The translations under genes and the position numbers were made by a program. A stretch of DNA of 62,679 bases, counting the filler, from Nemertoderma westbladi (taxonomy: Eukaryota > Animalia > Xenacoelomorpha): the NCBI GenBank assembly GCA_032718475.1. It is 3 parts of 3 records of this genome, joined end to end, with 100 filler letters (N's around TTAATTAATTAA, not from the genome) between each part and the next. Parts side by side here need not be neighbours in the genome. Positions count along the whole stretch, not along the records: positions 16,947 to 46,072 come from JAUCBJ010006499.1; 2 more parts are not named here. One strand, given 5' to 3'. Below the pieces are notes generated by a model. The model saw nothing but the letters and a program-made list of their open reading frames with translations. It had not been told where the DNA came from and did not search any database. Each line of letters begins with the position of its first letter. The first letter of the stretch is position 1. Positions 25,571 through 46,072 of the stretch are shown here, in pieces.

Positions 25571-26976
25571 ATCTGAACTGATATGAGTGGAGCGAATATT
25601 GGATTTTACTTGGAATTATGCTTAAGAGTTACGACCTACTAAATTCAGAGGGATTCTCGGAATTATAATGTCCATAGGCCTCTATGCTGTAAGTAGTTGG
25701 TAGACAAACCCGTCACCATATCAAAGTACAACGCGATAATAACGCAAGCCGACATCACTATATAAATGGTCGATGGAACTGTAGGTGTGATTATATCTTA
25801 TTAAAGTAAGAATGTACGTTGTAATTAGACGACAGATATGATGGCTAAACTTCTATAATTTAAAATAAAGCTTTATTGTTTGAGTACCTGTAGTGGAACA
25901 TGTGATGGGATTCGAGCTCGTACTTGTGGTACATAAACGGTCAAAAAGGAATAAAAGCTTTGTTTTTCGTATTATACGCAATTCATTTTCACCTCCAGTT
26001 GTTGTCTGAAACCGAATAGTAATGGTCGAGAATCCCGGTGTTGCCAGGGATATGTAGTGTGACTGATACCGATAGTACGATAGTACATGGTAGAGGACGG
26101 TCTGTCAGTTTTAGGAAACTAAGCAACGTATTTGAAGATATAATTATTTATTACATGGTAAAAAATGAGAACTTTTTTTACTATTCTCGAGGCATTTTAT
26201 TTACCGAGCTCCAACGAGGTTAATAAAGGGTCGAGAGAATATTGAATTTCCATAGTTACTGCGATTCAAATTACTGTATTCTTCAAGTCATGATGCTGCC
26301 TAACTCAATGTTAAATAATTTAGTGTTCTCGAATATTTATTACGTAATAACTAGAGAGCTGCTTAACTACATACACCAATATTGAATATTTTGGAGTACC
26401 CCTTGCAGACACTAAAGTTGCAATAACTTTTGAGTTTTTGCTTTTGGGATTTTGCTCAAATTACTTGCAAACAACAACATCGATGCTCTTTCAACACATG
26501 TAATAAAATTTAAGAAATTCCACCAAAATATTTTATTTTACTTTTTTCGCCGGAAAAAAGGAAAATTATTATAATCATAAAAAAAGTAAAATCAATACAA
26601 TCCGTTTGGTTACTTATTTCCCTGGAGAAATTTACTTTTATTTTGGGGTACATTTGAACCAAAAAGTAACAATTTAAGAATATAAATTCATTCGTTATTT
26701 TATGAAAATAAGTTAGTAGTTGTTATTGGTTTAGTTCTATCAAAGCATGTATTCGTAGGAAAAGTCGAATCTTTATTCCTTAAAAGCCGACTATAAATCA
26801 GTTAATTTATATTATTATTATTCCAGTTGCATTAACAGCTCAATACCAATTTGTATATTTACATACTACCGTAGAAGGCATTTTGAAACTGGTCTACACT
26901 CTACTCTGAGACTGATATTCTTTAACAATGAGTAGGGCCTAATCTCGCCAGTCGCGTTAACTGCAAGAACAACGAC

Positions 26977-28023
26977 ATGAATATAACCGGTACTAAGATT
27001 CGCGTCGAAACCGACGTGGTTATAAAGATACTCGCCAATGACTTCAACCATCATACGTCATCCATGACGTCACTGAACAGCTATGAAGATATTAACTACT
27101 TGGTTCCCACAGCAACGGGGAAATTTGTGTTGAAAATTTCGAATCCCAGAGACTCTAAGAATGCCAATTTAATGGACGGATTAACTGAAGTTATGATTCA
27201 TTTAAGAGATCGAGGTGTTGTGTGTCCCGTACCGCAACGTTCTACAGGAGGAGATTATATTGTGTACCGCGAATTCCTCGACAAAAACAACCAATCACAT
27301 CAATGCGCAGTTCGGCTTCTCTCTTACGTAGAAGGGGAGATATTATTTAAAGCGTCAGTAATAACAGATAACCTGTTGAAACAGCTGGGCGGATTTCTCG
27401 CGGATATTGATAAAGGGTTGATGACGTACACTCATCCGGGTGTTACGTCACGCACTGATTTTGATTGGGACATGAGGAATGCGCAACGAATGCGAAAATA
27501 TATTGAATATATTCCAGAACCGAATCGAAGGCAACTCATTACTAACGTCTTGGATAGATTCCTGGAAAAGTTTGCAATTCATCAAGTTAATATGACGGGG
27601 GGGATTATTCACGGCGACTTTAATGGCCATAACATTTTAGTTGATGAAGATTGTAAAATGCGTGGCATTCTAGATTTTGGTCACACAGTAAATTCCTTCC
27701 TAGCATTTGACCTAGGAATCGCTATAATGTATATTTCTAAGGAATTATTTAGCAAGTACGATGAAGAACGCTTTCTGAATGCACCACGTTACTTCCTCCA
27801 ATCATATTGCGCGAAGATAATCCTCAACCAATCAGATTTGGAAATGGTTGTCGTAGCAACAATGATGCGTTATGCAATGTCTTTAACTAAAAGCTGGTAC
27901 AACCTAACGTTGGATCCGGATAATATTTATTTATTAGACACAGAACGGGGCGGCGGTTGGAAATGCCTCCAATTATTGGCTGATCAGGACGCTGATGCGT
28001 TACTTCGACGGTGGATGGCGTAG
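26977..28023 (+). CDS. HYKK: Hydroxylysine kinase-like protein (aminoglycoside-phosphotransferase fold, AGPHD1/HYKK family), single coding exon
   Basis: Intact 348-aa ORF with SYEDINY, FVLKISN, VRLLSYVEG, the Brenner-type IIHGDFNGHNILV, GILDFG, FDLGIAIMY and C-terminal YLL..GWKCL motifs. Confidence 0.88.
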   Translation: MNITGTKIRVETDVVIKILANDFNHHTSSMTSLNSYEDINYLVPTATGKFVLKISNPRDSKNANLMDGLTEVMIHLRDRGVVCPVPQRSTGGDYIVYREFLDKNNQSHQCAVRLLSYVEGEILFKASVITDNLLKQLGGFLADIDKGLMTYTHPGVTSRTDFDWDMRNAQRMRKYIEYIPEPNRRQLITNVLDRFLEKFAIHQVNMTGGIIHGDFNGHNILVDEDCKMRGILDFGHTVNSFLAFDLGIAIMYISKELFSKYDEERFLNAPRYFLQSYCAKIILNQSDLEMVVVATMMRYAMSLTKSWYNLTLDPDNIYLLDTERGGGWKCLQLLADQDADALLRRWMA

Positions 28024-31732: not shown

Positions 31733-32957
31733 ACTGCAGCCACTAATACTACAGCGCTATTAATACTGCAGCTATTAATACTACAGCTATTAACACTACA
31801 GCTATTAATACTGCAGCTACTATTACTGCAGCTACTAATACTGCAGCTAATAATATTGCAGCTAATAATACTACAGCTACTAATACTGCAGCTATCAATA
31901 CTGCAGCTATCAATACTGCAGCTATTAATACTGCAGCTACTAATACTGCAGCTATTAATACTGCAGCTATTAATACTGCAGCTATTAATACTGCAGCTAT
32001 TAATACTGCAGCTATTAATACTGCAGCTATTAATACTGCAGCTATTAATACTACAGCTACTAATACTGCAGCTATCAATACTGCAGCTATTAATACTGCA
32101 GCTACTAATACTGCAGCTATTAATACTGCAGCTATTAATACTGCAGCTATTAATACTGCAGCTATTAATACTGCAGCTATTAATACTACAGCTATTAATA
32201 CTACAGCTATTAATACTACAGCGATTAATACTGCAGCTATTAATACTACAGCTATTAATACTGCAGCTATTAATACTGTGCAGCTACTAATACTGCAGCT
32301 ACTAATACTGCAGCAGCTATTAATACTGCAGCTAATAATACAACAGCTATTAATACTGCAGCTACTAATACTACAGCTATTAATACTGCAGCTATTAATA
32401 CTACAGCTATTAATACTGCAGCTATTAATACTGCAGCTATTAATACTACAGTTACTAATACTGCAGCTAGTAATACTGCAGCTATTAATACTACAGCTAT
32501 TAATACTGCAGCTAATAATACTCCAGCTATAATACTGCAGCTATTAATACTGCAGCTATTAATATTACAGCTATTAATACTGCAGCTATTAATATTACAG
32601 CTATTAATACTGCAGCTATTAATATTACAGCTATTAATACTGCAGCTATTAATACTGCAGCTATTAATACTGCAGCTATTAATATTACAGCTATTAATAC
32701 TGCAGCTATTAATATTACAGCTATTAATACTGCAGCTATTAATATTACAGCTATTAATACTACAGCTATTAATACTGCAGCTATTAATATTACAGCTATT
32801 AATACTGCAGCTATTAATATTACAGCTATTAATACTACAGCTATTAATACTGCAGCTATTAATACTGCAGCTATTAATACTGCAGCTACTAATACTGCAG
32901 CAGCTATTAATACTGCAGCTAATAATACTACAGCTATTAATACTGCAGCTATCAATA
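31733..32957. repeat. 15-bp satellite (gctattaatactgca)n, left block
   Basis: Direct tandem array that resumes in phase at 37840. Confidence 0.97.
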
Positions 32958-35900
32958 CTGCCGTGATAAGGCAAAACACCCTATCTCAAGAAAACTCATT
33001 TCGAGAAAATTGGCAAAGAATATTTGGAACTTTAAGGCCTAATATCTATTTTGTAAAATGGGTAAACAGTAGAAATATTAGGTCATAGGGTAATAAAACA
33101 TGGTTAAAATTGTCGTGATATTTAAATTTTATCTAATTTTCGAATGGAACTCCCAAAAAACGCGATAGGGTGTTTTGCCAAAAATATTTTACTTTGAAAA
33201 TTAGATAGGGTGATTTTAGCGCCACCCTATCTTTCACTTTATGAGATAGGGTAATTCTTGTACTTACACTTTGCTTTCATTATTTTGAGCATATTATTTT
33301 AGTTTTATTTATTAATTTGGCTTTTATTTATAATTTTATGGCTTTCAAAAAACCGATATAACTTCAAAAATAAAATTGTATCAATATGTGCTTCACTTTT
33401 AACTATAATAGTATTACATTATTTCATTTTATTTTAAACAAAGAAATAGGTTTAATAACATTTCATTACAATAATAATCAGCACAATTATTAATCAGCAC
33501 AAAACTTATCGACTGCATAATATTTAAACAGGTCTTTGCTATTAGACGACCGACTAATTGAATTTAAAAAAAGACTCAAGGTGGCATCTTTTGTTACATA
33601 CAAGTGATTTATCATGTTAAAAAGTATCCTTATCCATCACAAAGTTACTTTATGCCAGATAACATCGATGGAAATGACTCTCTCGGCAGATATCTCTTAA
33701 AGATTGAAAATGTGGATGACAGCTTGTAACAAAAAATGCCACCAACGACCTTTTCAACCCACATTTTTGTTCTTTGGCCGGCTGTCTATATTATTATTTA
33801 TCGTTTATCGTCACATATAAAAATTAAAATAATACAAATTATACACAATGTAAAAATCAGCTATACTATACAAATAATTGTGAAGCAAAATATTTACAAT
33901 TTTCAACATTTTTTGTCCAAGAAAGAATACTAAATAATACTACTTCGTAATCTCTAATAATTGTACTAAAATTATTGTTCTACACCTATCAAATAAAAAT
34001 ACTAAATAAGAATCCAAAAATATGTGCCCAAAAAAGAATACTAAAAATACTAATTCGTCATCTCTAATCTTGCTAAAATTGTTGTTCTATTCCTATTAAA
34101 CCATATTATTGTCGTAACATCAATTTCAAATAAAATTAATGAATTACAAAATAATAATAGAGTCCTTCCAGAGTCTGAATTAGTTATTATATCCTATGTA
34201 AATTGTTCCAGAAGGTAATACGATCGCGAGGTATTATTGGCCCAAGACGGTCAATGAGAGCGTCGAGTTTTTGAGATTCAATACCAGATGGCATTTCGAC
34301 GCGATCGGGTTCACATAGAACATTGAAATCTCTCTTCATCGTGCTGGTCGACGTTTCCCATCCTTCCTGATTATAACACGTTTTCCATGACATGAAATGA
34401 GAACCTCTTTCAAACTTGATCGCAACAATCGACTTGAGATATGGAAAGTTGTTCTCTTGTCTCTCTTTATTGATTTTGTACATGGAGAATTCGTTCATCC
34501 AAAGAGAAAAGTCACTGAATTGAAGATCTTTGACATTTGACTTAAAATTGGCGGCAGAACGTACACACGACTTGAAATCTTGAAAATCGTACACATTCTT
34601 CATGGTTGTAATTTCCTTGTTCACGAGTCTGTGGAGGTTGTCGCTGCTCATGAAACTGTGGTGTGGTTCGAAATACCACAGTTCTATCGATTGAGGTCCA
34701 ACGAATTGTACTAGTGGTATTAAGGTCGTGAAGAGCGTGTAATTTTTGTTTTGGGAACTACAATTATCAAGCCATATCTTCACTGTTTTTCTGTCTCGAG
34801 CAGCAGGTGACTGGAGGAACGCTTGAAAGGTCGAAGCCATCCTCGTCATTTCGACCACGTATTCCATCATGCCATATTGCACTAAATACCTCAGTATTGT
34901 CTCTCTTTTTACCAACAGGGACAAAGGACTCGTGATACGCAATAATTCGTCGAAGGAAGGCAACATCTTTGAATTGGTCCAATACGGGTAACATTATAAC
35001 TTTTTGCAGGTCCGCTGACACAACAATTTCGTCCTTGTCAATATTGCCGTCAACATATTTTTGATAAGTTGCTCGTGATAGTTTTGCACGATTTAAATGA
35101 CCAGTATGAGCAGTACAAATGTCACAATCCACTGAACTCTGACAAACACCTCCGCTACAATGCATTTCAAAACCCTCACATTTTATGCACTCTTCATTCC
35201 CGAGTTTGGCCAGAGAAATTCCCATCTCCTTAAATACTTCGAAATATTTCGAATATGACACTTCAGTGGTTTTATATTTCTCTAAAAAGTCGCGGTGCAA
35301 TTTTGTGACGGTAAATTCACTAGGCAGGTACCGTCGATTCGGTGCATGTTCATATCGGTAGTGGTGATGTTGGGGGTTATAGGATTCTATATGAGCCTTT
35401 ATATCATCATCATTGATCTTATTTGATGGCGGATGTTGGCCACGTTTATCTGCTGGAGGAGTAGTAGACCCAATATCCCCGGATAAATTTGTTTTAATCA
35501 CTTGATTGTTGGTGGATTTGTATCCAAGTGTTGTCAAGAAAAATGGTTGGCATACACGTACCTTACTCCCAGTTATATCAGTGAACATGTATTTAAAACA
35601 CTTTGTCTTTCGCTCATTGGTTAAGGTGTTGGTTGCCTCCACACTATTCACAATATATTGCTTTCGTTGTTCGGCACTCATCTCCTTCCAATAGCTATTG
35701 CGAAGTTGTGAACGTCTCGATTCTAAAATTTTAACTTCACAATTTTGTTTACACTTGCACTCTGCTGGTCTTAACGGATGCCTTTCATTATCTCTTACCA
35801 TACGAGCCATTTTGGTGCGTGCTCTGTTCTCTTTTGGCGGTTTGCTGCGTTTTTTCTTTCCTCTAATAATCAAATGGTCAGATTGTTCTCCACTTGCCGA

Positions 35901-37839
35901 GTCCCCTAGATCTTCATCTGGTTCCGCATTGTTGTCACCTGAGTCTGCATTATCGTCATCCGAGTCCCCAATGTCGTCACCCGAGTCCGCATTGTCCTCA
36001 TCTGGGTCATAATCAGGGTCTGGATCGCTACTATCTTTTTCTTTATTAATAGTATTAAGTGGAATTGGTAATAATACAGTAACTGGTAATTCGGGTGTTG
36101 GTTTGTTAGGTTCATCGAATGAATTAAATAGTGAATCAATAAAATCAAGATCAATTGTCGAAGTATCAACAGAACTTGGGATGTTTGAAAGAGAAATGTT
36201 GAAGGAATCACTGTCTTTGTGAGTTTGTAAGTTGTTGTGAGAGATCGGTGAAGTGTCTGCAGGAGGACCAAGGTAAACGTCAAAGTTCGCATTCTTTGGA
36301 TCAACACCCAGAGGTTCTTTTCTGGGGTTGTCGAACCCGACCTCGTAATGGGGGTTTAAAGTTCGAAGGGTGTCTGGACTTATAATAGGAAGGTTATCAC
36401 CACTGTCAAGACCTGTTTCTCTCGAGGCTAATGGGATGTACGTGTGAGTGTTTGTGTTCAAAGTAGGACGGACAAGACCATCTGTGTGGAACTGCGGAGA
36501 TGGTTCACATTGTGAATCTGTAAATCCGGGGAATTCTACATTATTGTAGACAGACTGACCATATTCAATAATGTTATTACTGGTACCGTTCTCGGCGGAA
36601 ATGAATGGAAAAAGCTGTCCTTCCGTCGTTACAGGTAAATTTGTATTGGTTACACGTATTTTTTCTAAGGTGTAGCGCTGTGGGTGTGCCCATCGAGTTC
36701 CGTAAATGGCTCTGTCGAAAGTTATAGAACACGTTTTTTCATGTACCGCATGTATAACACCACCAGTCCACCACTTATTTCTCCATAACACATCCACTTT
36801 ATCTCCAACGTGATACATATCTTAGATATAAAGATTAGTTAAAAGGAATGTAACAAATAAATATAAATAAGGTAAAAACAGAAACTACAATTTAAATTTA
36901 ACAATTCGCGCTCTAAAATAGGCCTAGAATAACCAACCAGTATCACTAAGATAGATAGCTGTCTAAACTAGGTTTCTAATGATTCAAACGATCAGTTGCT
37001 ATGGTAACAGCTTTTACACTATAACAACCGTGCACCACCAGCTGGCAACCATGCCGTGGATGTGCAACGAACAATCTCGCTGCTATGGAAACTGCGTTTA
37101 TATTTGAATTAAATTCCACGCTGTGCAGTTAAAGTCCGGGAAATTTATTTATTACTGCTTAATTATTATATACAGTATAATTCCGTCATTCCAATTTTCC
37201 AGGGCTAATATTCCTATTTTAGAAATTCGTTTAGAAGACAAGAAAACTCTGTTATAACCAATGGACAATTAATTGTTGTTTATATTACTGTGTTTAAAAT
37301 AATCCTACAAATTGTGAGACCATACGGACGGAACTAATTAAGGTAAATAGCCTACTAAAATTACGATAGTTGAGCTGGATTCAGATAACTATTTCAACCG
37401 CTTCACTATACTTTTTATTAGAAACGGTTTCAGTTTAAAACTTTTAAAGCAATCTCAGTTCCTAATATACTAAACATTAGAAATACTGTCCTCCTATTGG
37501 CTGTTACAAGTTTACTCAAAGGCTCTGATTGGATTAATTACATAAGATACTTAGATGTTTACGGTAAATTACCCTATCTCAAAATTTCGAAGATAGGGTA
37601 TTTAATAATTTTTTGGCAAAACACCCTATCTCATATAAATAGAAATAAGGTGTTTTGCCGTAATAAATTTCGTATTTATCATACATAGGGTGTTTTAGTC
37701 CACCAAAAACTCAATATTGCGATGGGATTAAGGATTTCTAACATGGCTCATTCGAAAGAGCATGCAAAAATACCATTAAATAGAAAATAAATTTTTTTTT
37801 AAATTTTTAAAGATAGGGTGTTTTGCCTTATCACGGCAG
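32958..37839 (-). mobile_element. Full-length Sola1-type DNA transposon (4.9 kb)
   Basis: Perfect 29-bp TIRs ctgccgtgataaggcaaaacaccctatct. 4-bp TSD AATA at 32954-32957 and 37840-37843. Repeated subterminal accctatct/gatagggt motifs at both ends. Internal transposase. Confidence 0.85.
34187..36818 (-). pseudogene. Sola-type DDD transposase (~877 aa) with an N-terminal Tudor/Agenet-like domain and one frameshift at ~34840
   Basis: ORFs 36818-34767 and 34966-34187 join at GRNDED/MASTFQ. Motifs SADLQKVIMLP, WHDGIRGR, WLDNCSSQNKN and HSFMSSDNLH. Cys-rich RVCQPFFLTTLG and CIKCE segments. Confidence 0.85.
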
Positions 37840-37893
37840 AATACTGCAGCTATCAATACTGCAGCTATCAATACTGCAGCTATTAATACTGCA
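37840..37893. repeat. 15-bp satellite, 54-bp remnant between the two transposon insertions
   Basis: aatactgcagctatcaatactgcagct..., in phase with both flanking blocks. Confidence 0.9.
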
Positions 37894-38783
37894 GGTCATT
37901 GGTCAATAAACGTGGCTCAAAGCGTTGCAAAATATTTTTTTTTTATTTCTTACCGAACCCCAATATATTATATACCATTGGAATCGTCTTTTTGAGCTCT
38001 TTCCAGATCTGGCCAAAATATATAAATATACTCAAGTCTAAAAGTTTTATAGGCGAAGTAACGCTAAATGCTATCCAAGGTAGACATCCAAGGTATACAT
38101 GGGTTCAAGGTATACATTTTTGTGTACCAAGGTATACATTGGTTAAATTTTCAAGGTATACGTTTTGTGTACCAAGGTATACAATTTGTGTACCAAGATA
38201 TACATTTTGTGTACCAAGGTATATATTTTGTGTTCCAAGGTATACATTGGTTAAATTTTCAAGGTATACGTTTTGTGTAGCAAGGTAGTGTACCAAGGTA
38301 TACGTGTTGTAGCAAGGTATTCTTCGTTTGTTTGGTGTAACAAGGTAAACATGGGTTCAATCTTTAAGGCATAAGATTTGTGTATCAAGGGTTACGATAT
38401 TAGTGATTTTGAAAACAAGTGAACAAGGAAGGTAGGCTATCTGGGGTCAATATATTCAGTTCAATATTCAGAGTAAGCCTTTGTACAGTATGTATTTAAA
38501 GTTTCGGGAGACAGATGCACTGTAACTACTTAATTATTGATAGTAATTTACATGTCTGTTTTTTGTATGTGTTGTGTACGAAATCATTTGCTATAAACAC
38601 GACAAATCATTACAAATAAACAAATTAAATATGTTCATTAACTTATCACAATAGTTAACTGAAGCCCAAGAAAAGCTGTTTGTTCGACTAGTTTGCGTGT
38701 TTCATCGCCTCTAAGTTTACATGGTGGTAGGGGCTAGCTAAGCTAGTTCCTTTGAAATGCTATGTAAGCATGCCTCTCGCGGT

Positions 38784-39280: not shown

Positions 39281-39736
39281 AGTGGGGCTGTTAAACGCCT
39301 AGCGTGTATTAATTGTATTGTATACCTTGGAGTCGTTGTTGAAGCTTGACCCCATTGTTTATATCGTATTGGGGCTGTTAAATGCCTATGTACCGTGTAT
39401 TAATTGTATTGTATACCTTGGAGTCGTTGTTGAAGCTTGGCCCCATTGTTTATATCGTAGTGGGGCTGTTAAACGCATATGTACCGTTTATTAATTGTTC
39501 TAAGTTGTTGTTGAAGCCTGGCCCCATTGTGTACCGTAGTGGGGCTGTTAAACGCCTACCGTGTATTAATTGTATTGTATACCTTGGAGTCATTTTTGAA
39601 GCTTGGCCCCATTGTTTATATCGTATTGGGGCTGTTAAACGCCTATGTACCGTGTATTAATTGTATTGTATACCTTGGAGTCGTTGTTGAAGCTTGGCCC
39701 CATTATTTATATCGTATAGGGGCTGTTAAACGCCTA
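39281..39736. repeat. ~87-91-bp minisatellite inside the Sola-like element, resuming at 42649-42840
   Basis: The unit ggggctgttaaacgcctatgtaccgtgtattaattgtattgtataccttggagtcgttgttgaagcttggcccc... contains the reverse complement of the ccaaggtatac motif. Confidence 0.9.
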
Positions 39737-42648
39737 CACTGAAAAATCGTACCAGTGGTTCTTTTTTAAAAAACCTCTGGTTTTCGAAAATAACCCCAGG
39801 TTAATTTGGTGAATTTTTGACCTGCGGTTAATTCGAGGAACCAGAGGTTTATCGATTCAAAGATAACCTGTGGTTAAATTTTATAAATTAAACCTCAGGT
39901 TGTTTTTCGTATAACAACCAGTGGTTGTGCTCAAGTTCAATGGTGTTTCAGGTTTCAAATAAATGATTTAACCTGTGGTTAATTTAAGGTAAACAGGTGT
40001 TTAGGTTTCAAAATAAATGGATAAACCTGCGTTTAATGTGGATCAACCGTTGTTTCAGGTTTCAAATATATGGTTTAACCTGTGGTTAATTTAAGATCAA
40101 CCGGTGTTTCGGGTTTCAAATATGGGTTAACCTGTGGTTAATTTAAGATCAACCGGTGTTTTTTTTCAAAATAAATGGTTAAACCTGCGTTTAATGTGGA
40201 TCAACCGTTGTTTCAGGTTTCAAATATATGGTTTAACCTGTGGTTAATTTAAGATCAACCGGTGTTTCGGGTTTCAAATATAGGGTTTAACCTGTGGTTA
40301 ATTTAAGATCAACCGGTGTTTTTTTTCAAAATAAATGGTTAAACCTGCGTTTAATGTGGATCAACCGTTGTTTCAGGTTTCAAATACATGGTTTAACCTG
40401 TGGTTAATTTAAGATCAACCGGTGTTTCAGGTTTCAAATGAGGATCAAGTCGGTGTTTTAGATTTCAAATAAATGGTTTATTGAATATCAAATATAATAT
40501 CAAATATCAAATATGTTTATCAAATATAAATGATGATCAAATTATTGAATAAATTAATTTACAGTTTCCTAAATCCTAAATGATAATGTATTGAACCATT
40601 CACTCTTCCTGATATGGACAATCATTTTTCCTAACAGACATTGCGGTATATTCTTCATCAATGTCATCAAGTCCCTTTAGAAATTTGACTGTAGACGAAG
40701 CCTTCCTTTTCCCATGCTGCTCGCGATTTTCAAAATATGGAACAATGTATTCCGCAGTGTCTTTAATCCATGAGAAATTGTTAGAACCAAAGAAGTAAAT
40801 CCACTTGAAGTTGTCCCCTGGACTGCTGGATGCTTTGGCTTTGGCATTGCGGAACCCTCTGGAGCTCTTTCAGTTCGGGCAGGCCAGAATGGTTTTGTTA
40901 TACGTTGCCGCGCCCAAACCAACTCACCAACATAGTCACCCTCATCTCGACTATCAGATGGCTGGATGGACCACTGCAGGTACTAGACGATTTAGATCCA
41001 TAAGATAATTCCGAGGATTCATCATCAGAAGAAGAATAAAAAATGCTTACTTTCCTCTTTGCACCTCGTGGATGTGGGACTATCTCCAATTAGGTAGGCC
41101 TAATTTCAGAATTTCATAATTGGGGAGTGAGTAGGCCTGCCAGCCTACCGCAGTTACGGCTGACCGGTAGGTACTGGCAGACTGGTGTAGCAGAGAATTT
41201 CCACCCCTGCCCCCCTAAAATTTCACCACCCGGTTACGCCTACTGCAGTACTGGCCTATGTGACAGTTTTAATTACTGAATTAGGGTTAAGGCCTGGCCA
41301 ACTACTGAACTACAGAACTAACCAACCGCATAGCTGCATTCCTGCATAGGCCTAACCAACTGACCAAACCAAAATAATAAACCAAATACAGAAATATAAT
41401 ATACCGTACTCAGGTACCGTAGGGGTACTCATAATACAGTAATATACACACAGATATAGCTACAATCCAAGAAATACAGAAATAGTACCGGTACAACAAC
41501 AAAACAAAAAGAGTACACTAGGCCTACCCTACACAGCCCTACTACAGCAGTACTGTAAACTGTTCTGTACTACCGGCAACCAGTACCACTACTGTACCAG
41601 TGGCAGTGAAACACTGCATCACTGTAATCAAATTTCAGGATTGTACCGGTACCGATTCTGCGATTGCAGGACAACGCAGGATGGCAATGGCACTTTCACA
41701 AAAAATGACTGAATTATGATAGGCCTATGACAGTATGAACAAATTGCAGAATTAGCGGTCAACTTATGGCGGTTTATTCAAACATCCCTAAGACATACAT
41801 TGTAATTTATAACACATTTTTGTTCAACATGACATAGTAGCATTCAACAAATATAAGGGAATGCTTGATTTATGTTATAAATAATCTAAAACATGTAAAT
41901 CATGTTAAACAATCGTTAAATATTTACCTGATAAAACATGTTACATAAAAACGTACTTAACAAACGTATTAAGATTGTTTACATGATTGGATATTATGTT
42001 ATTGGATGTTCAATTAACATGTGGATCAACAACATTTTAGAAAGAAACTATGAAACATGAGCATGTTTACTATATGTTGTCAACCACAGGTTGTTTTAAG
42101 TTTTCAACCACCGTTCCATGTAAGTTGTAGACCACCGGTTATTCTAAGTCTTCAACCACCGTTACCTTGTAAACATACGGTGATTTAATTTTTGTAAACC
42201 ACCGGTTAAGTTATCCACTACCGTTTACTGTGTTGTAAACAAACTGTGATTTGAATTTTTGTAAACCACCGGTTATTCTAAGTTTTCAACCACCGTTTAC
42301 TGTGTTTTAAATCAACGGTTATATGTATTTTTCAACCAATCGATTTATGTAAGTTTTAAACCACCGGTTACTTTGTATCAAATAATATGAACCGCCGTTT
42401 ATTCCTAAGTCAAACACTGTTTCTGTTTTATGATAGCAATTACAATCCGGAAAACCACCGTTTCAATGTAACACTGCAGTTTGGGAAAATTTAAACCACC
42501 GTTTCAATGTAACACTGCACTTTGGGAAAATTTAAACCACCGTTTTAGCATATGCCAATTTGTAACCAGCGGTTTTAAAAGAGCAACCATCGGTTGAAAA
42601 TTTTATACCAGAGGTTAAAAAAAGAACCGCCGAACAATTTTTTCAGTG
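39737..42648. mobile_element. Non-autonomous CACTA/EnSpm (CMC) element, 2.9 kb
   Basis: Termini CACTGAAAAA...TTTTTCAGTG. 2-bp TA duplication; the empty site cgcctatgtaccg is seen in neighbouring minisatellite units. Subterminal aacc-nnn-ggtt arrays at 39760-40480 and 42080-42630. Confidence 0.85.
40600..41089 (-). pseudogene. Frameshifted PWWP-domain gene remnant inside the CACTA element
   Basis: Joined frames give YVGELVWARQRITKPFWPAR...(frameshift ~40815)...FKWIYFFGSNNFSWIKDTAEYIVPYFENREQHGKRK...KFLKGLDDIDEE. All PWWP consensus blocks are present in order. Confidence 0.8.
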
Positions 42649-43718
42649 TATGTACCGTGTATTAATTGTATTGTATACCTTGGAGTCGTTGTTGAAGCTT
42701 GGCCCCATTGTGTAAATCATATTGGTGCTGTTAAACGCCTACCGTGTATTAATTGCATTGTATACCTTGAAAACATTGTAGAAGCTTGGCGTGTTGCTGT
42801 CCCATTGTTTATCACACTGATAGAGTATACCTTGAACATTATAATATGTATAATGAGCTAAAACTGTCTACCTTGGTATAAAAATGTCTACCTTGGAACG
42901 AACAAACTCTTTCACTTCCAAGGGATACAAATTCCAAGGGATACCATACCGTCTTATACCAAGGTATACCAATATACTGCAGTATCATAGAAACGGGAAG
43001 GGCAGCGACAATTTATCTTAGCCAACACAAAGGGCTCTATATAAGTAATTAAAATGGTAAGAGCCGATATAAACCCGTTCGTTTATAGAAAATGACAGGC
43101 AGTCAAAGTTATGTTCCAAGGGTATACATATTTATCCAAAATCCTGTCCTACCCTCCTTAAACAGATTGTGTGGTCAAATTGCAGGAAGTAGGAGGGTCG
43201 AATAGATATAATTTGGGAAGCAGAATCAATACTCATTACAATAAATGTTTATTTGGCGGCATTCCGACACCATGTAGACAGTCTGTAGATGTTGTTTATA
43301 CACCATTTTTTTTAAAGAAAAAAGTGAAATTCTATATAGTTTGTTATGCTAGACGTTGTTTTAAGCCATGGGTCATGTTTATGTGCCCTTTGTGATTAAA
43401 TGAAGAAGCAACGTCCACTCTATCGATTGGTATATAATATTGGCCAAGATATTCAAGTCATATATTTGTGTGGCAGCTTATTTCATGGGGACTATATTTT
43501 GCAACGCCCAAGGTAGACACCAAGGTATACATTTTTATGACTTGACTTCTTGTAGTGAAAATACAATATTAGTGTGCAGCTCAGATTTTATCTATGTTGT
43601 AGAGCGCGCTCTAATCTTCCAAACGAGCCATCAACCATTAAAATCGGTTGATGTAAAATGGATTTATAAGCAAAAGTGTGAATTTGCAAAAATGTGCCAT
43701 CCTTACTGACCAATGACC

Positions 43719-46072
43719 TGCAGCTATTAATACTACAGCTATTAATACTGCAGCTATCAATACTGCAGCTACTAATACTGCAGCTATCAATACTGCAGCT
43801 ATTAATACTACAGCTATTAATACTGCAGCTATTAATACTGCAGCTAATAATACTCCAGCTATAATACTACAGCTATTAATACTGCAGCTATTGATACTAC
43901 AGCTATTAATACTGCAGCTATTAATACTGCAGCTATCAATACTGCAGCTATCAATACTGTAGATATTAATACTGCAGCTATCAATACTGCAGCTATTAAT
44001 ACTACAGCTATTAATACTGCAGCTAATAATACTCCAGCTATAATACTACAGCTATTAATACTGCAGCTATTGATACTGCAGCTATTAATACTGCAGCTAT
44101 TAATACTGCAGCTATTGATACTACAGCTATTAATACTGCAGCTATTAATACTGCAGCTATTAATACTACAGCTATTAATACTGCAGCTACTAATACTGCA
44201 GCTACTATTACTGCAGCTACTAATACTGCAGCTAATAATACTACAGCTATTAATACTGCAGCTACTAATACTGCAGCTACTAATACTGCAGCTATTAATA
44301 CTACAGCTATTAATACTGCAGCTATTAATACTGCAGCTAATAATACTGCAGCTCAGCTACTAATACTGCAGCTATTAATACTGCAGCTAATAATACTACA
44401 GCTATTTATACTGCAGCTACTAATACTGCAGCTACTAATACTGCAGCTATTAATACTGCAGCTATTAATACTGCAGCTATTAATACTGCAGCTATTAATA
44501 CTACAGCTACTAATACTGCAGCTATTAATACTGCAGCTAATAATACTGCAGCTATTAATACTGCAGCTAATAATACTACAGCTATTTATACTGCAGCTAC
44601 TAATACTGCAGCTACTAATACTACAGCTATTAATACTACAGCTATTAATACTGCAGCTATTAATACTGCAGCTACTAATACTGCAGCTATTAATACTGCA
44701 GCTAATAATACTGCAGCTATTAATACTACAGCTATTAATACTGCAGCTATTAATACTGCAGCTACTAATACTGCAGCTATTAATACTGCAGCTAATAATA
44801 CTGCAGCTAATAATACTACAGCTATTAATACTGCAGCTACTAATACTACAGCTATTAATACTGCAGCTACTAATACTGCAGCTATTAATACTGCAGCTAC
44901 TAATACTACAGCTATTAATAATGCAGCTACTAATACTGCAGCTACTAATACTGCAGCTATTAATACTACAGCTATTAATACTGCAGCTATTAATACTGCA
45001 GCTACTAATACTGCAGCTATTAATACTGCAGCTAATAATACTGCAGCTAATAATACTACAGCTATTAATACTGCAGCTACTAATACTGCAGCTATTAATA
45101 CTGCAGCTAATAATACTACAGCTATTTATACTGCAGCTACTAATACTGCAGCTACTAATACTGCAGCTATTAATACTACAGCTATTAATACTGCAGCTAT
45201 TAATACTGCAGCTATTAATACTGCAGCTAATAATACTGCAGATATTAATACTACAGCTATTAATACTGCAGCTATTAATACTACAGCTATTAATACTGCA
45301 GCTATTAATACTGCAGCTAATAATACTGCAGCTATTAATACTACAGCTATTAATACTGCAGCTATTAATACTGCAGCTACTAATACTGCAGCTATTAATA
45401 CTACAGCTATTAATACTGCAGCTATTAATACTACAGCTATTAATACTGCAGCTATTAATACTGCAGCTAATAATACTGCAGCTATTAATACTACAGCTAT
45501 TAATACTGCAGCTATTAATACTGCAGCTACTAATACTGCAGCTATTAATACTGCAGCTAATAATACTGCAGCTACTAATACTGCAGCTATTAATACTGCA
45601 GCTAATAATACTGCAGCTACTAATACTGCAGCTATTAATAATGCAGCTACTAATACTGCAGCTATTAATACTGCAGCTAATAATACTGCAGCTACTAATA
45701 CTGCAGCTATTAATAATGCAGCTACTAATACTGCAGCTACTAATACTGCAGCTATTAATACTACAGCTATTAATACTGCAGCTATTAATACTGCAGCTAC
45801 TAATACTGCAGCTATTAATACTGCAGCTAATAATACTGCAGCTAATAATACTACAGCTATTAATACTGCAGCTACTAATACTGCAGCTATTAATACTGCA
45901 GCTAATAATACTACAGCTATTTATACTGCAGCTACTAATACTGCAGCTACTAATACTGCAGCTATTAATACTGCAGCTAATAATACTGCAGCTATTAATA
46001 CTACAGCTATTAATACTGCAGCTATTAATACTGCAGCTAATAATACTGCAGCTATTAATACTACAGCTATTA
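43719..46072. repeat. 15-bp satellite (gctattaatactgca)n, right block, running into the gap
   Basis: Direct tandem array. Confidence 0.97.

What the first reader, a model, noticed from the sequence alone, without database searches (positions are those of the whole stretch)
36651..36818. Sola1 transposase with an N-terminal Tudor/Agenet-like histone-reader domain
Seen: the first ~56 aa (MYHVGDKVDVLWRNKWWTGGVIHAVHEKTCSITFD...YTLEKIR) follow the Tudor/Agenet pattern GDxVxV...WWxGxI..V....xIxF...IR, with aromatic residues where a methyl-lysine cage would lie. A ~260-aa low-complexity, acidic linker joins this segment in frame to the Sola core. The element has perfect TIRs, a TSD and only one frameshift, so it is young, and it sits inside satellite DNA. 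Known: Royal-family domains bind methylated Lys/Arg, and chromodomains target chromoviruses to heterochromatin. Inference: this may be a chromatin-guided cut-and-paste transposon. I know of no described Tudor-Sola fusion but cannot exclude one.
Basis: partly seen in the sequence, partly recalled or inferred. Interest (0 to 1): 0.75.

Follow-up and report, generated by a model that had tools for sequence, protein, structure and literature searches.

The report
Sola transposase with Tudor-like reader domain
A complete, recently inserted cut-and-paste jumping gene in an animal genome encodes, at the front of its cutting enzyme, a small domain predicted to fold like a Tudor methyl-mark reader that none of the relatives examined carry and that likely tethers the enzyme to methylated chromatin, although binding and any steering of insertions are untested.

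Summary
Observation confirmed. A 4,882-bp Sola-type element (32958-37839) has perfect 29-bp TIRs and a 4-bp AATA duplication. Its transposase frame opens with a 57-aa segment, runs stop-free through a 260-aa linker into the core, and breaks once near 34839. The segment folds alone as a five-strand Tudor/SH3 barrel (pLDDT 76), and its best PDB matches are Agenet and Tudor domains (E 0.005-0.02, sub-threshold). W12/W17/F34 align exactly with the AGDP1 cage Y122/W127/F144; the acidic cap is not kept. None of 245 related proteins or 75 related loci carries it, and no close relative of the domain was found. Targeting is not supported. The satellite is 3-fold enriched in the 4-mer that Tudor-less relatives often insert into. 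A second insertion has a non-array flank. A sister subfamily (about 89% identical core) shows no match of 80% or more to the Tudor DNA. Reader domains on transposon proteins are known (chromo-Gypsy, PHD-Ginger1, chromo-hAT, one Tudor-Gypsy); I found no Tudor-Sola fusion in print. Unreviewed notes of this scan report Tudor/Spindlin-like domains on Kolobok, hAT and Ginger2 transposases in other genomes. Verdict: new variant of a known kind, function inferred.

The parts
32958..37839 (-). Whole Sola-type DNA transposon, 4,882 bp
   Evidence: TIR pair and TSD; only copy in the window
31733..32957 (.). 15-bp satellite array, left flank (about 81 units)
32954..32957 (+). Target-site duplication AATA, left copy
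   Evidence: sequence and satellite phase
32958..32986 (+). 3' terminal inverted repeat, 29 bp, begins CTGCCGT
   Evidence: same terminus in related elements
33164..33252 (.). Subterminal GATAGGG/CCCTATC repeats, likely transposase binding sites (inferred)
34187..34840 (-). Transposase C-terminal part (frame 2, residues 52-268 of P0002): DUF7869 region with the second and third conserved acidic residues (D76 in DNC, D118 in SSD)
   Evidence: PF25273 E 1.8e-06, above its cut-off; motif conservation
34838..34840 (-). Frame break between the two transposase pieces
   Evidence: adjacent alignment to homologs; also present in contigs of runs X1 and X2, while an X3 contig has two more bases here
34839..35867 (-). 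Transposase core in frame 1 (residues 318-660): basic stretch, Cys-rich and helical/winged-helix-like region, Cys/His cluster, first acidic residue D603 (ADLQK)
   Evidence: 160 homologs at E<=0.001; confident model for most of 321-660; weak winged-helix matches for 462-542
35868..36647 (-). 260-aa predicted disordered linker, acidic at its end, with the family's DPDYxP motif at residue 267
36648..36818 (-). Tudor/Agenet-like five-strand barrel, residues 1-57; cage-position residues W12, W17, F34, and possibly Y39
36821..36846 (-). Possible 3' splice or trans-splice acceptor (branch-like ACTAAT, pyrimidines, AG) just before the ATG; pattern recalled, untested
   Evidence: sequence only
36995..37008 (-). 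RFX X-box-like motif upstream of the ATG (consensus recalled)
   Evidence: only match in the window, but 13 of 100 shuffles also give one
37559..37696 (.). Subterminal repeats at the 5' end
37811..37839 (-). 5' terminal inverted repeat, 29 bp
37840..37894 (+). Right TSD AATA (37840-37843) and 3.7 further satellite units

Best explanation
This is a full-length Sola-type cut-and-paste element whose single transposase frame begins with a domain predicted to be a Tudor-type barrel, likely gained only in this lineage, which would bind a methylated lysine or arginine on chromatin and so tether the transposase through a 260-residue, predicted flexible linker. SHOWN: element ends, TSD, in-frame fusion, one frame break, absence of the domain from the relatives examined. 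PREDICTED: barrel fold (about 0.85) and cage geometry. INFERRED: methyl-mark binding (about 0.55). In this model the tether raises the local concentration of the transpososome on marked nucleosomes, while the core still picks the exact site by a short (C)WRYW-type DNA preference shared with Tudor-less relatives. Bias toward heterochromatin in particular is the weakest step (about 0.2-0.25). This copy is frameshifted inside the catalytic domain and would be non-autonomous.
For: Fold: the single-sequence AlphaFold2 model has five strands, pLDDT 75.7, pTM 0.58. Foldseek's top 10 PDB rows are all Agenet or TDRD3 Tudor (E 0.005-0.013). VIA-align gives PHF19 Tudor Z 8.3, rmsd 2.1, 54 aligned. In phmmer against PDB the top 5-6 rows are all Agenet (best E 0.015). 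Most Atlas neighbours are Tudor, Agenet or Tudor-knot clusters (0.81-0.88). Pfam's best match is the MORC2 chromo-like domain (E 0.009-0.03). Cage: the ungapped alignment to 5zwx puts W12, W17 and F34 on Tyr122, Trp127 and Phe144, named as the H3K9me2 cage in PMC6208443 (passages). Fusion: 317 stop-free codons, 0 of 20,000 shuffles, enclosed by the TIRs; contigs of X1 and X3 show the same element end beside a different flank, so the family has moved. Lineage-specific gain: 0 of 245 proteins and 0 of 75 loci. The N-terminus of this family does pick up domains: OTU on P0236 (E 2.4e-08). No near relative of the barrel turned up in two word-based searches, which fits long residence in the element better than a fresh capture of a conserved host exon (weak).
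Against: No Tudor score reaches a curated or E<=0.001 threshold. Only 2 of 5 single-sequence models exceeded pLDDT 70. In the full-length model built on 112 sequences, residues 1-60 were low-confidence (block means 32-34), although no other row has a homologous N-terminus. VIA-align's top row is Spt5 KOW (Z 8.6), tied with PHF19, and PsaE and integrase barrels score about 7, so the fold alone is not reader-specific. AGDP1's acidic cap Glu149 maps to Y39 and its Asp124 to N14, and AGDP1 reads H3K9me2 with tandem domains, whereas this one is single. The 15-bp satellite is about 3-fold richer in WRYW than the other stretches measured (0.32 against 0.10 per base), and 16 of 18 ends of Tudor-less relatives have NRYN flanks (9 of 18 WRYW). 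The second insertion's flank is not the array. A sister subfamily about 89% identical over the core start continues about 900 nt upstream with only a 38-nt match in the linker and none in the Tudor DNA at 80% or more. Constraint could not be measured: 1 substitution (K28R) in 171 nt.
Confidence: 0.42

Rival explanations
1. Passenger capture: the element picked up the 5' end of a host gene (promoter and a Tudor-like first exon) in frame. The domain is tolerated at the tip of a disordered N-terminus but does nothing for transposition.
For: Confined to one lineage (0 of 245 proteins, 0 of 75 loci). Not detected in the sister subfamily. N-termini of this family are long, variable and unalignable. 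An X-box-like motif and an acceptor-like site lie upstream; the motif occurs in only 1 of 75 related loci. The Atlas's best named cluster is a kinesin-13 (KIF2A-like) N-terminal domain, 0.88.
Against: No host-like donor was found. All three cage aromatics are intact although the domain resembles nothing closely. The Atlas flags its top family as probably wrong (1 of 10 best hits share it), and Pfam did not list PF22923. The X-box is not significant (13 of 100 shuffles).
Confidence: 0.25
2. The barrel is a methyl-arginine reader of the SMN/TDRD3 type. It binds non-histone germline proteins (Sm, PIWI or polymerase tails) to localise the transposase or blunt silencing, not to choose insertion sites.
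For: TDRD3 Tudor takes 5 of Foldseek's top 10 rows, and SMN and SPF30 also appear. SMN's cage has four aromatics, W102/Y109/Y127/Y130, plus N132 (PMC9481570, passages); the query has a candidate fourth aromatic, Y39-G40, after F34. The domain is single, like SMN and TDRD3.
Against: Spacing fits Agenet exactly (5 and 17 residues) and SMN less well (7, 18, 3 against 5, 17, 5). No Asn at the matching place (T41). Sequence hits are Agenet only. PIWI binding usually needs an extended Tudor domain (recalled).
Confidence: 0.15
3. The barrel is a generic SH3/KOW-like module that grips DNA or RNA or helps multimerisation, like the C-terminal domain of retroviral integrases, and is not a methyl reader.
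For: VIA-align ranks Spt5 KOW first (Z 8.6) and RSV integrase at Z 7.2, rmsd 1.6. Many unannotated phage SH3-like barrels match as well (best E 0.0015). The segment has several Lys/Arg.
Against: Every sequence-level method points to Royal-family domains. Cage positions are aromatic. All examined relatives transpose without it.
Confidence: 0.11
4. The segment is not a folded domain: a Trp-rich stretch of recruited non-coding DNA that happens to resemble the Tudor pattern.
For: All scores are sub-threshold; 3 of 5 single-sequence models were below pLDDT 50; low confidence in the full-length model; no homologs.
Against: Four methods converge on one fold family. A (post hoc) cage-spacing pattern arose in 26 of 200,000 shuffles of the 57 residues and in 0 of 245 homologs. 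The match starts exactly at the first Met.
Confidence: 0.07

Closest known systems
Sola1 subgroup of Sola DNA transposons (Bao et al. 2009, not held; features from PMC3845634, PMC10294476, PMC4455052, passages)
   Same: TIRs, 4-bp AT-rich TSD, single DDD/E-type transposase with the DUF7869 region, length 4.9 kb (bivalve Sola1 mean 5,445 bp), long disordered N-terminus.
   Different: N-terminal Tudor-like barrel. TSD AATA does not fit the AWWT hallmark quoted in PMC3845634, nor do 18 of 18 ends of related elements. The core sits on a long branch, about 45% or less identical over most of the core.
Gypsy-10_Ec32 of Ectocarpus (PMC12477816, passages), described as the first reported TE carrying a Tudor domain
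   Same: Tudor domain fused to the DNA-integrating enzyme of a transposable element; targeting inferred, not shown.
   Different: That is an LTR retrotransposon with a C-terminal Tudor, conserved to Tribonema. This is an animal cut-and-paste transposase with an N-terminal barrel seen in one species.
Chromodomain-bearing Gypsy integrases (MAGGY, chromoviruses) and other reader-TE fusions, including chromo-hAT in Ephydatia (bioRxiv 10.1101/2021.11.30.470311, section 10); PHD on Ginger1 and Mutator transposases (PMC2836005, passages)
   Same: A Royal-family or PHD reader carried in cis by a transposase or integrase; the proposed tethering logic is the same.
   Different: Different reader fold subtype, superfamily and position. 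Heterochromatin targeting is reported for MAGGY but has no support here.
AGDP1/ADCP1 tandem Agenet domains (PDB 5zwx, 5zwz, 6ie4-7; PMC6208443, passages)
   Same: Best sequence and fold match; the three cage aromatics are in identical register.
   Different: Plant host protein with paired domains. The acidic cap Glu149 and the partner domain that reads H3K4/R8 are missing here, so H3K9me2 specificity cannot be transferred.

Membership tests
Sola superfamily / Sola1 | Terminal inverted repeats | tested here: met
   29-bp perfect TIRs; CTGCCGT termini shared with related elements
Sola superfamily / Sola1 | 4-bp target-site duplication | tested here: met
   AATA by satellite phase; 4-bp TSDs AACA, ATGT, AGTG in 3 distinct related elements (4 of 14 end pairs listed, two of them the same element)
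Sola1 | AWWT (or AWDT) target preference, called a hallmark in PMC3845634 | tested here: not met
   AATA here; 0 of 18 ends of relatives are AWWT, 16 of 18 are NRYN. So I file it as Sola-type and Sola1-like, not as a proven Sola1
Sola superfamily / Sola1 | Three conserved acidic residues in an RNase H-like domain | tested here: inconclusive
   DLQK, DNC and SxD motifs are present and conserved in 219, 176 and 160 of 245 homologs, truncated ones included. The fold was not confirmed because the domain is split by the frame break; Mos1 was top but at E 0.41
Sola1 | Phylogenetic grouping with named Repbase Sola1 transposases | not testable with these tools
No named Sola1 sequence was available; supplement searches gave none.
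Tudor/Agenet (Royal family) | Five-strand SH3-like barrel of about 55 residues | tested here: met
   Predicted only. Not reproduced in the full-length alignment-based model
Tudor/Agenet (Royal family) | Score above a curated Pfam Tudor or Agenet cut-off | tested here: not met
   Best 16.2 bits against a cut-off of 27 (Chromo_MORC2_6th); Tudor_2 12.8 against 31.4; Agenet PF05641 not listed
Methyl-lysine-reading Agenet/Tudor | Aromatic cage residues at the three canonical positions | tested here: met
   W12/W17/F34 = Y122/W127/F144 by ungapped alignment; 3D geometry not inspected
AGDP1-type H3K9me2 reader | Tandem domain pair and acidic cap (Glu149) | tested here: not met
   Single domain; Y39 at the Glu149 register
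Methyl-mark readers | Binding to methyl-Lys or methyl-Arg peptides | not testable with these tools
   Needs a peptide array or ITC
Chromatin-targeted transposons (chromovirus-like) | Insertions enriched in marked chromatin | tested here: inconclusive
   Two sites known, one in satellite and one not in the array; no assembly or chromatin data

The most novel reading that the evidence does not exclude
This is the first Tudor-armed cut-and-paste transposase of the Sola group. Its N-terminal cage reads a repressive methyl-lysine mark and steers insertions into satellite heterochromatin, so DNA transposons have converged on the chromovirus strategy and provide a 57-residue portable targeting module.
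Probability: 0.2. Interest if true: 0.8.

Novelty: new variant of a known kind. Interest (0 to 1): 0.5.

Why it matters
Target choice by chromatin tethering is established for a few retrotransposons but is barely documented for cut-and-paste elements, and a 2025 paper still called a Tudor-bearing Gypsy the first TE with this domain. A compact single Tudor on a transposase is easy to test (peptide binding, cage mutants, grafting onto a laboratory transposase). A positive result would show independent recruitment of Royal-family readers by DNA transposons, or a new anti-silencing route if it binds methyl-arginine. If it is a passenger, it is only an example of how Sola N-termini sample host domains (OTU in one relative, Tudor here).

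Tried and rejected
No whole genome is held, so sibling copies could be seen only through run contigs. No RNA holder was listed, which says nothing on expression. Searches for relatives of the barrel found 1 and 3 word-sharing candidates, none at E<=10 (weak evidence). The whole-library HMMER search was run with the full protein, so its 150 rows (of 3,172 at E<=0.001) are core-driven; the two long multi-stretch hits I read (P0123, P0124) repeat part of the core and have no Tudor. Pfam was run on 83 of the 125 new representatives at E<=0.05 (the rest were mostly short or began inside the core) and listed no Royal-family domain; the 120 proteins show only PF25273 or nothing in precomputed Pfam. 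The viral-contig scan gave no relative. The full-length model did not fold the barrel and gave no significant PDB match. Run X4 has no cover over the Tudor region (not evidence of absence). Alternative element boundaries inside the satellite were rejected because only CTGCC...GGCAG restores the array phase. An assembly error at the frame break is unlikely because contigs of X1 (possibly the source) and X2 span it unchanged. A kinesin-13 N-terminal origin was considered and not supported. Contig depth was not used as copy number. No complex prediction was run, because a methylated peptide cannot be modelled. Literature: 10 searches; those pairing Tudor with Sola or transposase showed no Tudor-Sola or Tudor-DNA-transposase report among the listings and passages seen. 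The library lacks most subscription papers and Repbase Reports, Bao 2009 was not held, and the supplement of the chromatin-evolution preprint (its table of 823 TE fusions), which I could not see, may list Tudor fusions. PMC9587614 has 0 occurrences of Tudor or Spindlin; the 'Tudor' in PMC9976928 is an author name.

Full report
Element. The finding lies in a 4,882-bp element from 32958 to 37839 with perfect 29-bp TIRs (2 matches in the window, 0 in 100 shuffles) and subterminal GATAGGG/CCCTATC repeats at both ends. It interrupts a 15-bp satellite; keeping one copy of the flanking AATA restores the array phase, which fixes a 4-bp TSD. The array is 1.2 kb on the left but only 55 bp on the right. 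The window is repeat-rich: at least 15.7 of 62.7 kb in the tandem arrays I summed, plus ORFs I read as RTE-like and BEL/Pao-like from recalled motifs. The host is likely an invertebrate animal (inferred); no assembly is held.

Transposase. A 683-codon minus-strand frame starts at 36818, and a second frame matches PF25273 DUF7869 above its cut-off. Residue 660 of the first and residue 52 of the second align to adjacent positions in 3 of 3 intact homologs, so there is one break and no missing part. The core has 160 hits in one search (120 listed) and 3,172 in another (150 listed), giving 245 distinct proteins. Named ones come from insects, Hydra, molluscs and a fish. Three acidic motifs are conserved in 219, 176 and 160 of 245. 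A Gly present in 140 of 141 EPGH-type matches is His here. Related elements share CTGCCGT ends and 4-bp TSDs. The AWWT preference called a Sola1 hallmark in PMC3845634 (passages and section 13) is not met here or in 18 of 18 related ends, and no named Sola1 sequence was available. The label is therefore Sola-type and Sola1-like, partly from recalled motifs. In a FastTree tree of 188 cores (57 shorter hits left out) the query is a long single branch (0.91) with no close sister.

The N-terminal segment. The first 317 codons are stop-free, against 11-35 stops in the other frames and 0 of 20,000 shuffles, so the fusion is in frame. Folded alone, residues 1-64 give five strands, pLDDT 75.7; the five models scored 75.7, 71.7, 46.2, 42.3 and 37.1. 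Foldseek's top 10 PDB rows are Agenet (5) and TDRD3 (5), E 0.005-0.013. VIA-align ties Spt5 KOW (Z 8.6, rmsd 2.1, 58 aligned) with PHF19 Tudor (Z 8.3, rmsd 2.1, 54 aligned), followed by Tudor, chromo-barrel, PWWP, PsaE and integrase barrels; the tool notes that Z of 7-8 is common. phmmer against PDB returns Agenet domains first (E 0.015-0.11). Pfam gives only sub-threshold MORC2 chromo-like and Tudor_2 matches. The Atlas lists an unnamed 74-aa cluster (0.91), a KIF2A-like N-terminal domain (0.88-0.89) and then Tudor and Agenet clusters. In the full-length model built on 112 sequences, residues 1-272 were below pLDDT 50, the barrel included; this counts against, though no other row has a homologous N-terminus. 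These lines are not independent; together I put the fold at about 0.85.

Cage. PMC6208443 (passages) names Tyr122, Trp127 and Phe144 as the H3K9me2 cage of radish AGDP1 AGD2, with Glu149 as cap and Asp124 contacting H3R2. The ungapped alignment to 5zwx maps these to W12, W17, F34, Y39 and N14. The aromatics are kept, the acidic contacts are not, and the partner domain is absent. SMN's methyl-arginine cage is W102/Y109/Y127/Y130 with N132 (PMC9481570, passages); Y39-G40 could supply a fourth aromatic. So a methyl-binding pocket is plausible, but H3K9me specificity cannot be inferred.

Distribution. The barrel matches none of 245 proteins (best E 0.039, inside a core region) and none of 2,787 six-frame ORFs from 75 loci (best E 1.8). 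A post hoc cage-spacing pattern occurs in 0 of 245. Long N-termini are normal (120 of 245 at 100 or more residues, 8 at 300 or more) and 40 of 245 share the DPDYxP-like motif, so the linker is ordinary. One relative, P0236, has an N-terminal OTU domain. Direct searches found no relative of the barrel.

Sibling copies. Three runs of one organism hold most of the element. X1 (possibly the source) and X2 match the Tudor region with 0 differences, and X3 with one, K28R, too few to test constraint. X1 and X2 carry the frame break. An X3 contig has two more bases there, but X3 contigs show other frame-shifting indels, so no intact copy was seen. Eight of the 39 listed X3 differences I examined (40 shown, 75 not shown) are CpG-type transitions. 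Contigs in X1 and X3 run 246 and 331 nt beyond the left TIR into non-array sequence, showing a second insertion site; the X3 flank ends in TATA and holds one 10-of-11 match to the satellite unit (read by eye). A sister subfamily is about 89% identical over 35394-35856. Its contig continues about 900 nt upstream but matches only a 38-nt linker island and nothing in the barrel DNA at 80% or more. Its sequence could not be retrieved, so a diverged barrel is not excluded, but this leans against strong shared constraint.

Targeting. Ends of Tudor-less relatives are flanked by NRYN in 16 of 18 cases and WRYW in 9 of 18. The 15-bp satellite has 0.32 WRYW sites per base against 0.10 elsewhere, and about 7-fold more C-WRYW or WRYW-G. 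The satellite insertion therefore needs no chromatin reader, and survival bias in repeats adds to this (inference).

Mechanism. Most likely (0.42) the barrel is a lineage-specific methyl-mark reader that tethers the transposase to chromatin through the disordered linker, while the core sets the DNA site. Rivals are passenger capture (0.25), a methyl-arginine reader of non-histone proteins (0.15), a nucleic-acid-binding SH3 barrel (0.11) and no real domain (0.07).

Known context. PMC12477816 (passages) calls an Ectocarpus Gypsy the first TE with a Tudor domain. The chromatin-evolution preprint (section 10 and passages) reports 823 chromatin-TE fusions, mostly PHD and chromo, including chromo-hAT; its supplement was not available. 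PMC2836005 (passages) shows OTU, Ulp1 and PHD on Ginger1. Searches showed no Tudor-Sola report. PMC5751038, PMC4455052, PMC10294476, PMC3985635, PMC9587614, PMC9976928 and bioRxiv 2021.09.26.461848 were seen as passages only. Unreviewed notes of this scan describe Spindlin- or Tudor-like domains on Kolobok, hAT and Ginger2 transposases in other genomes; I did not test them and do not count them as support.

Verdict. A real, in-frame and apparently undescribed Tudor-Sola fusion, a new variant of a known kind. It is seen in one species, in broken copies, with function inferred and targeting unsupported. Interest 0.5.

Noticed in passing
window 39736-42648; PWWP pieces at about 40603-40930 (-): A 2.9-kb element with CACTG-type inverted ends, TA flanks and subterminal repeats (EnSpm/CMC-like, label recalled) carries a frameshifted PWWP domain (Pfam E 5.6e-05 and 0.13 for the two pieces; best PDB match Drosophila 6kco, then LEDGF/PSIP1). 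A second Royal-family reader inside a mobile element, 2 kb from the Sola element.
   Followed up: partly
P0236: Sola-type transposase with an N-terminal OTU cysteine-protease domain (E 2.4e-08), like Ginger1 and Helitron OTU fusions.
   Followed up: partly
P0123, P0124, P0173: Proteins with repeated copies of the Sola pre-catalytic region (2, 2 and 5 matched stretches), possibly domesticated genes.
   Followed up: no
window 36821-37100 (-): Upstream of the ATG: an X-box-like motif (36995-37008), two weaker X-box-like words, CCAAT boxes further up, and a branch-point and acceptor-like site just before the start (motif consensus recalled). L001 has five palindromic X-box matches.
   Followed up: partly
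window 31733-32961, 37840-37894, 43718-46072: The 15-bp satellite unit is nearly palindromic, and two arrays switch orientation internally; it reaches very high summed depth in the runs.
   Followed up: no
window 26932-28023 (+): Intronless 363-codon APH-family phosphotransferase ORF (PF01636 E 1.5e-24), hydroxylysine-kinase-like by recall; the only host-like gene among ORFs of 150 aa or more.
   Followed up: partly
window 33926-34100 and 37789-37874: An 80-bp direct duplication in the 3' non-coding part of the element at 33914-33993 and 34025-34100 (84% identical); run contigs skip 145 nt across it. Other contigs share only the TIR or subterminal words, suggesting related MITEs.
   Followed up: no
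P0068, P0079, P0188: Some Sola relatives have a small Cys/His cluster in the N-terminus (weak Tc5 C-terminal match on P0188, E 0.004; others by eye).
   Followed up: no
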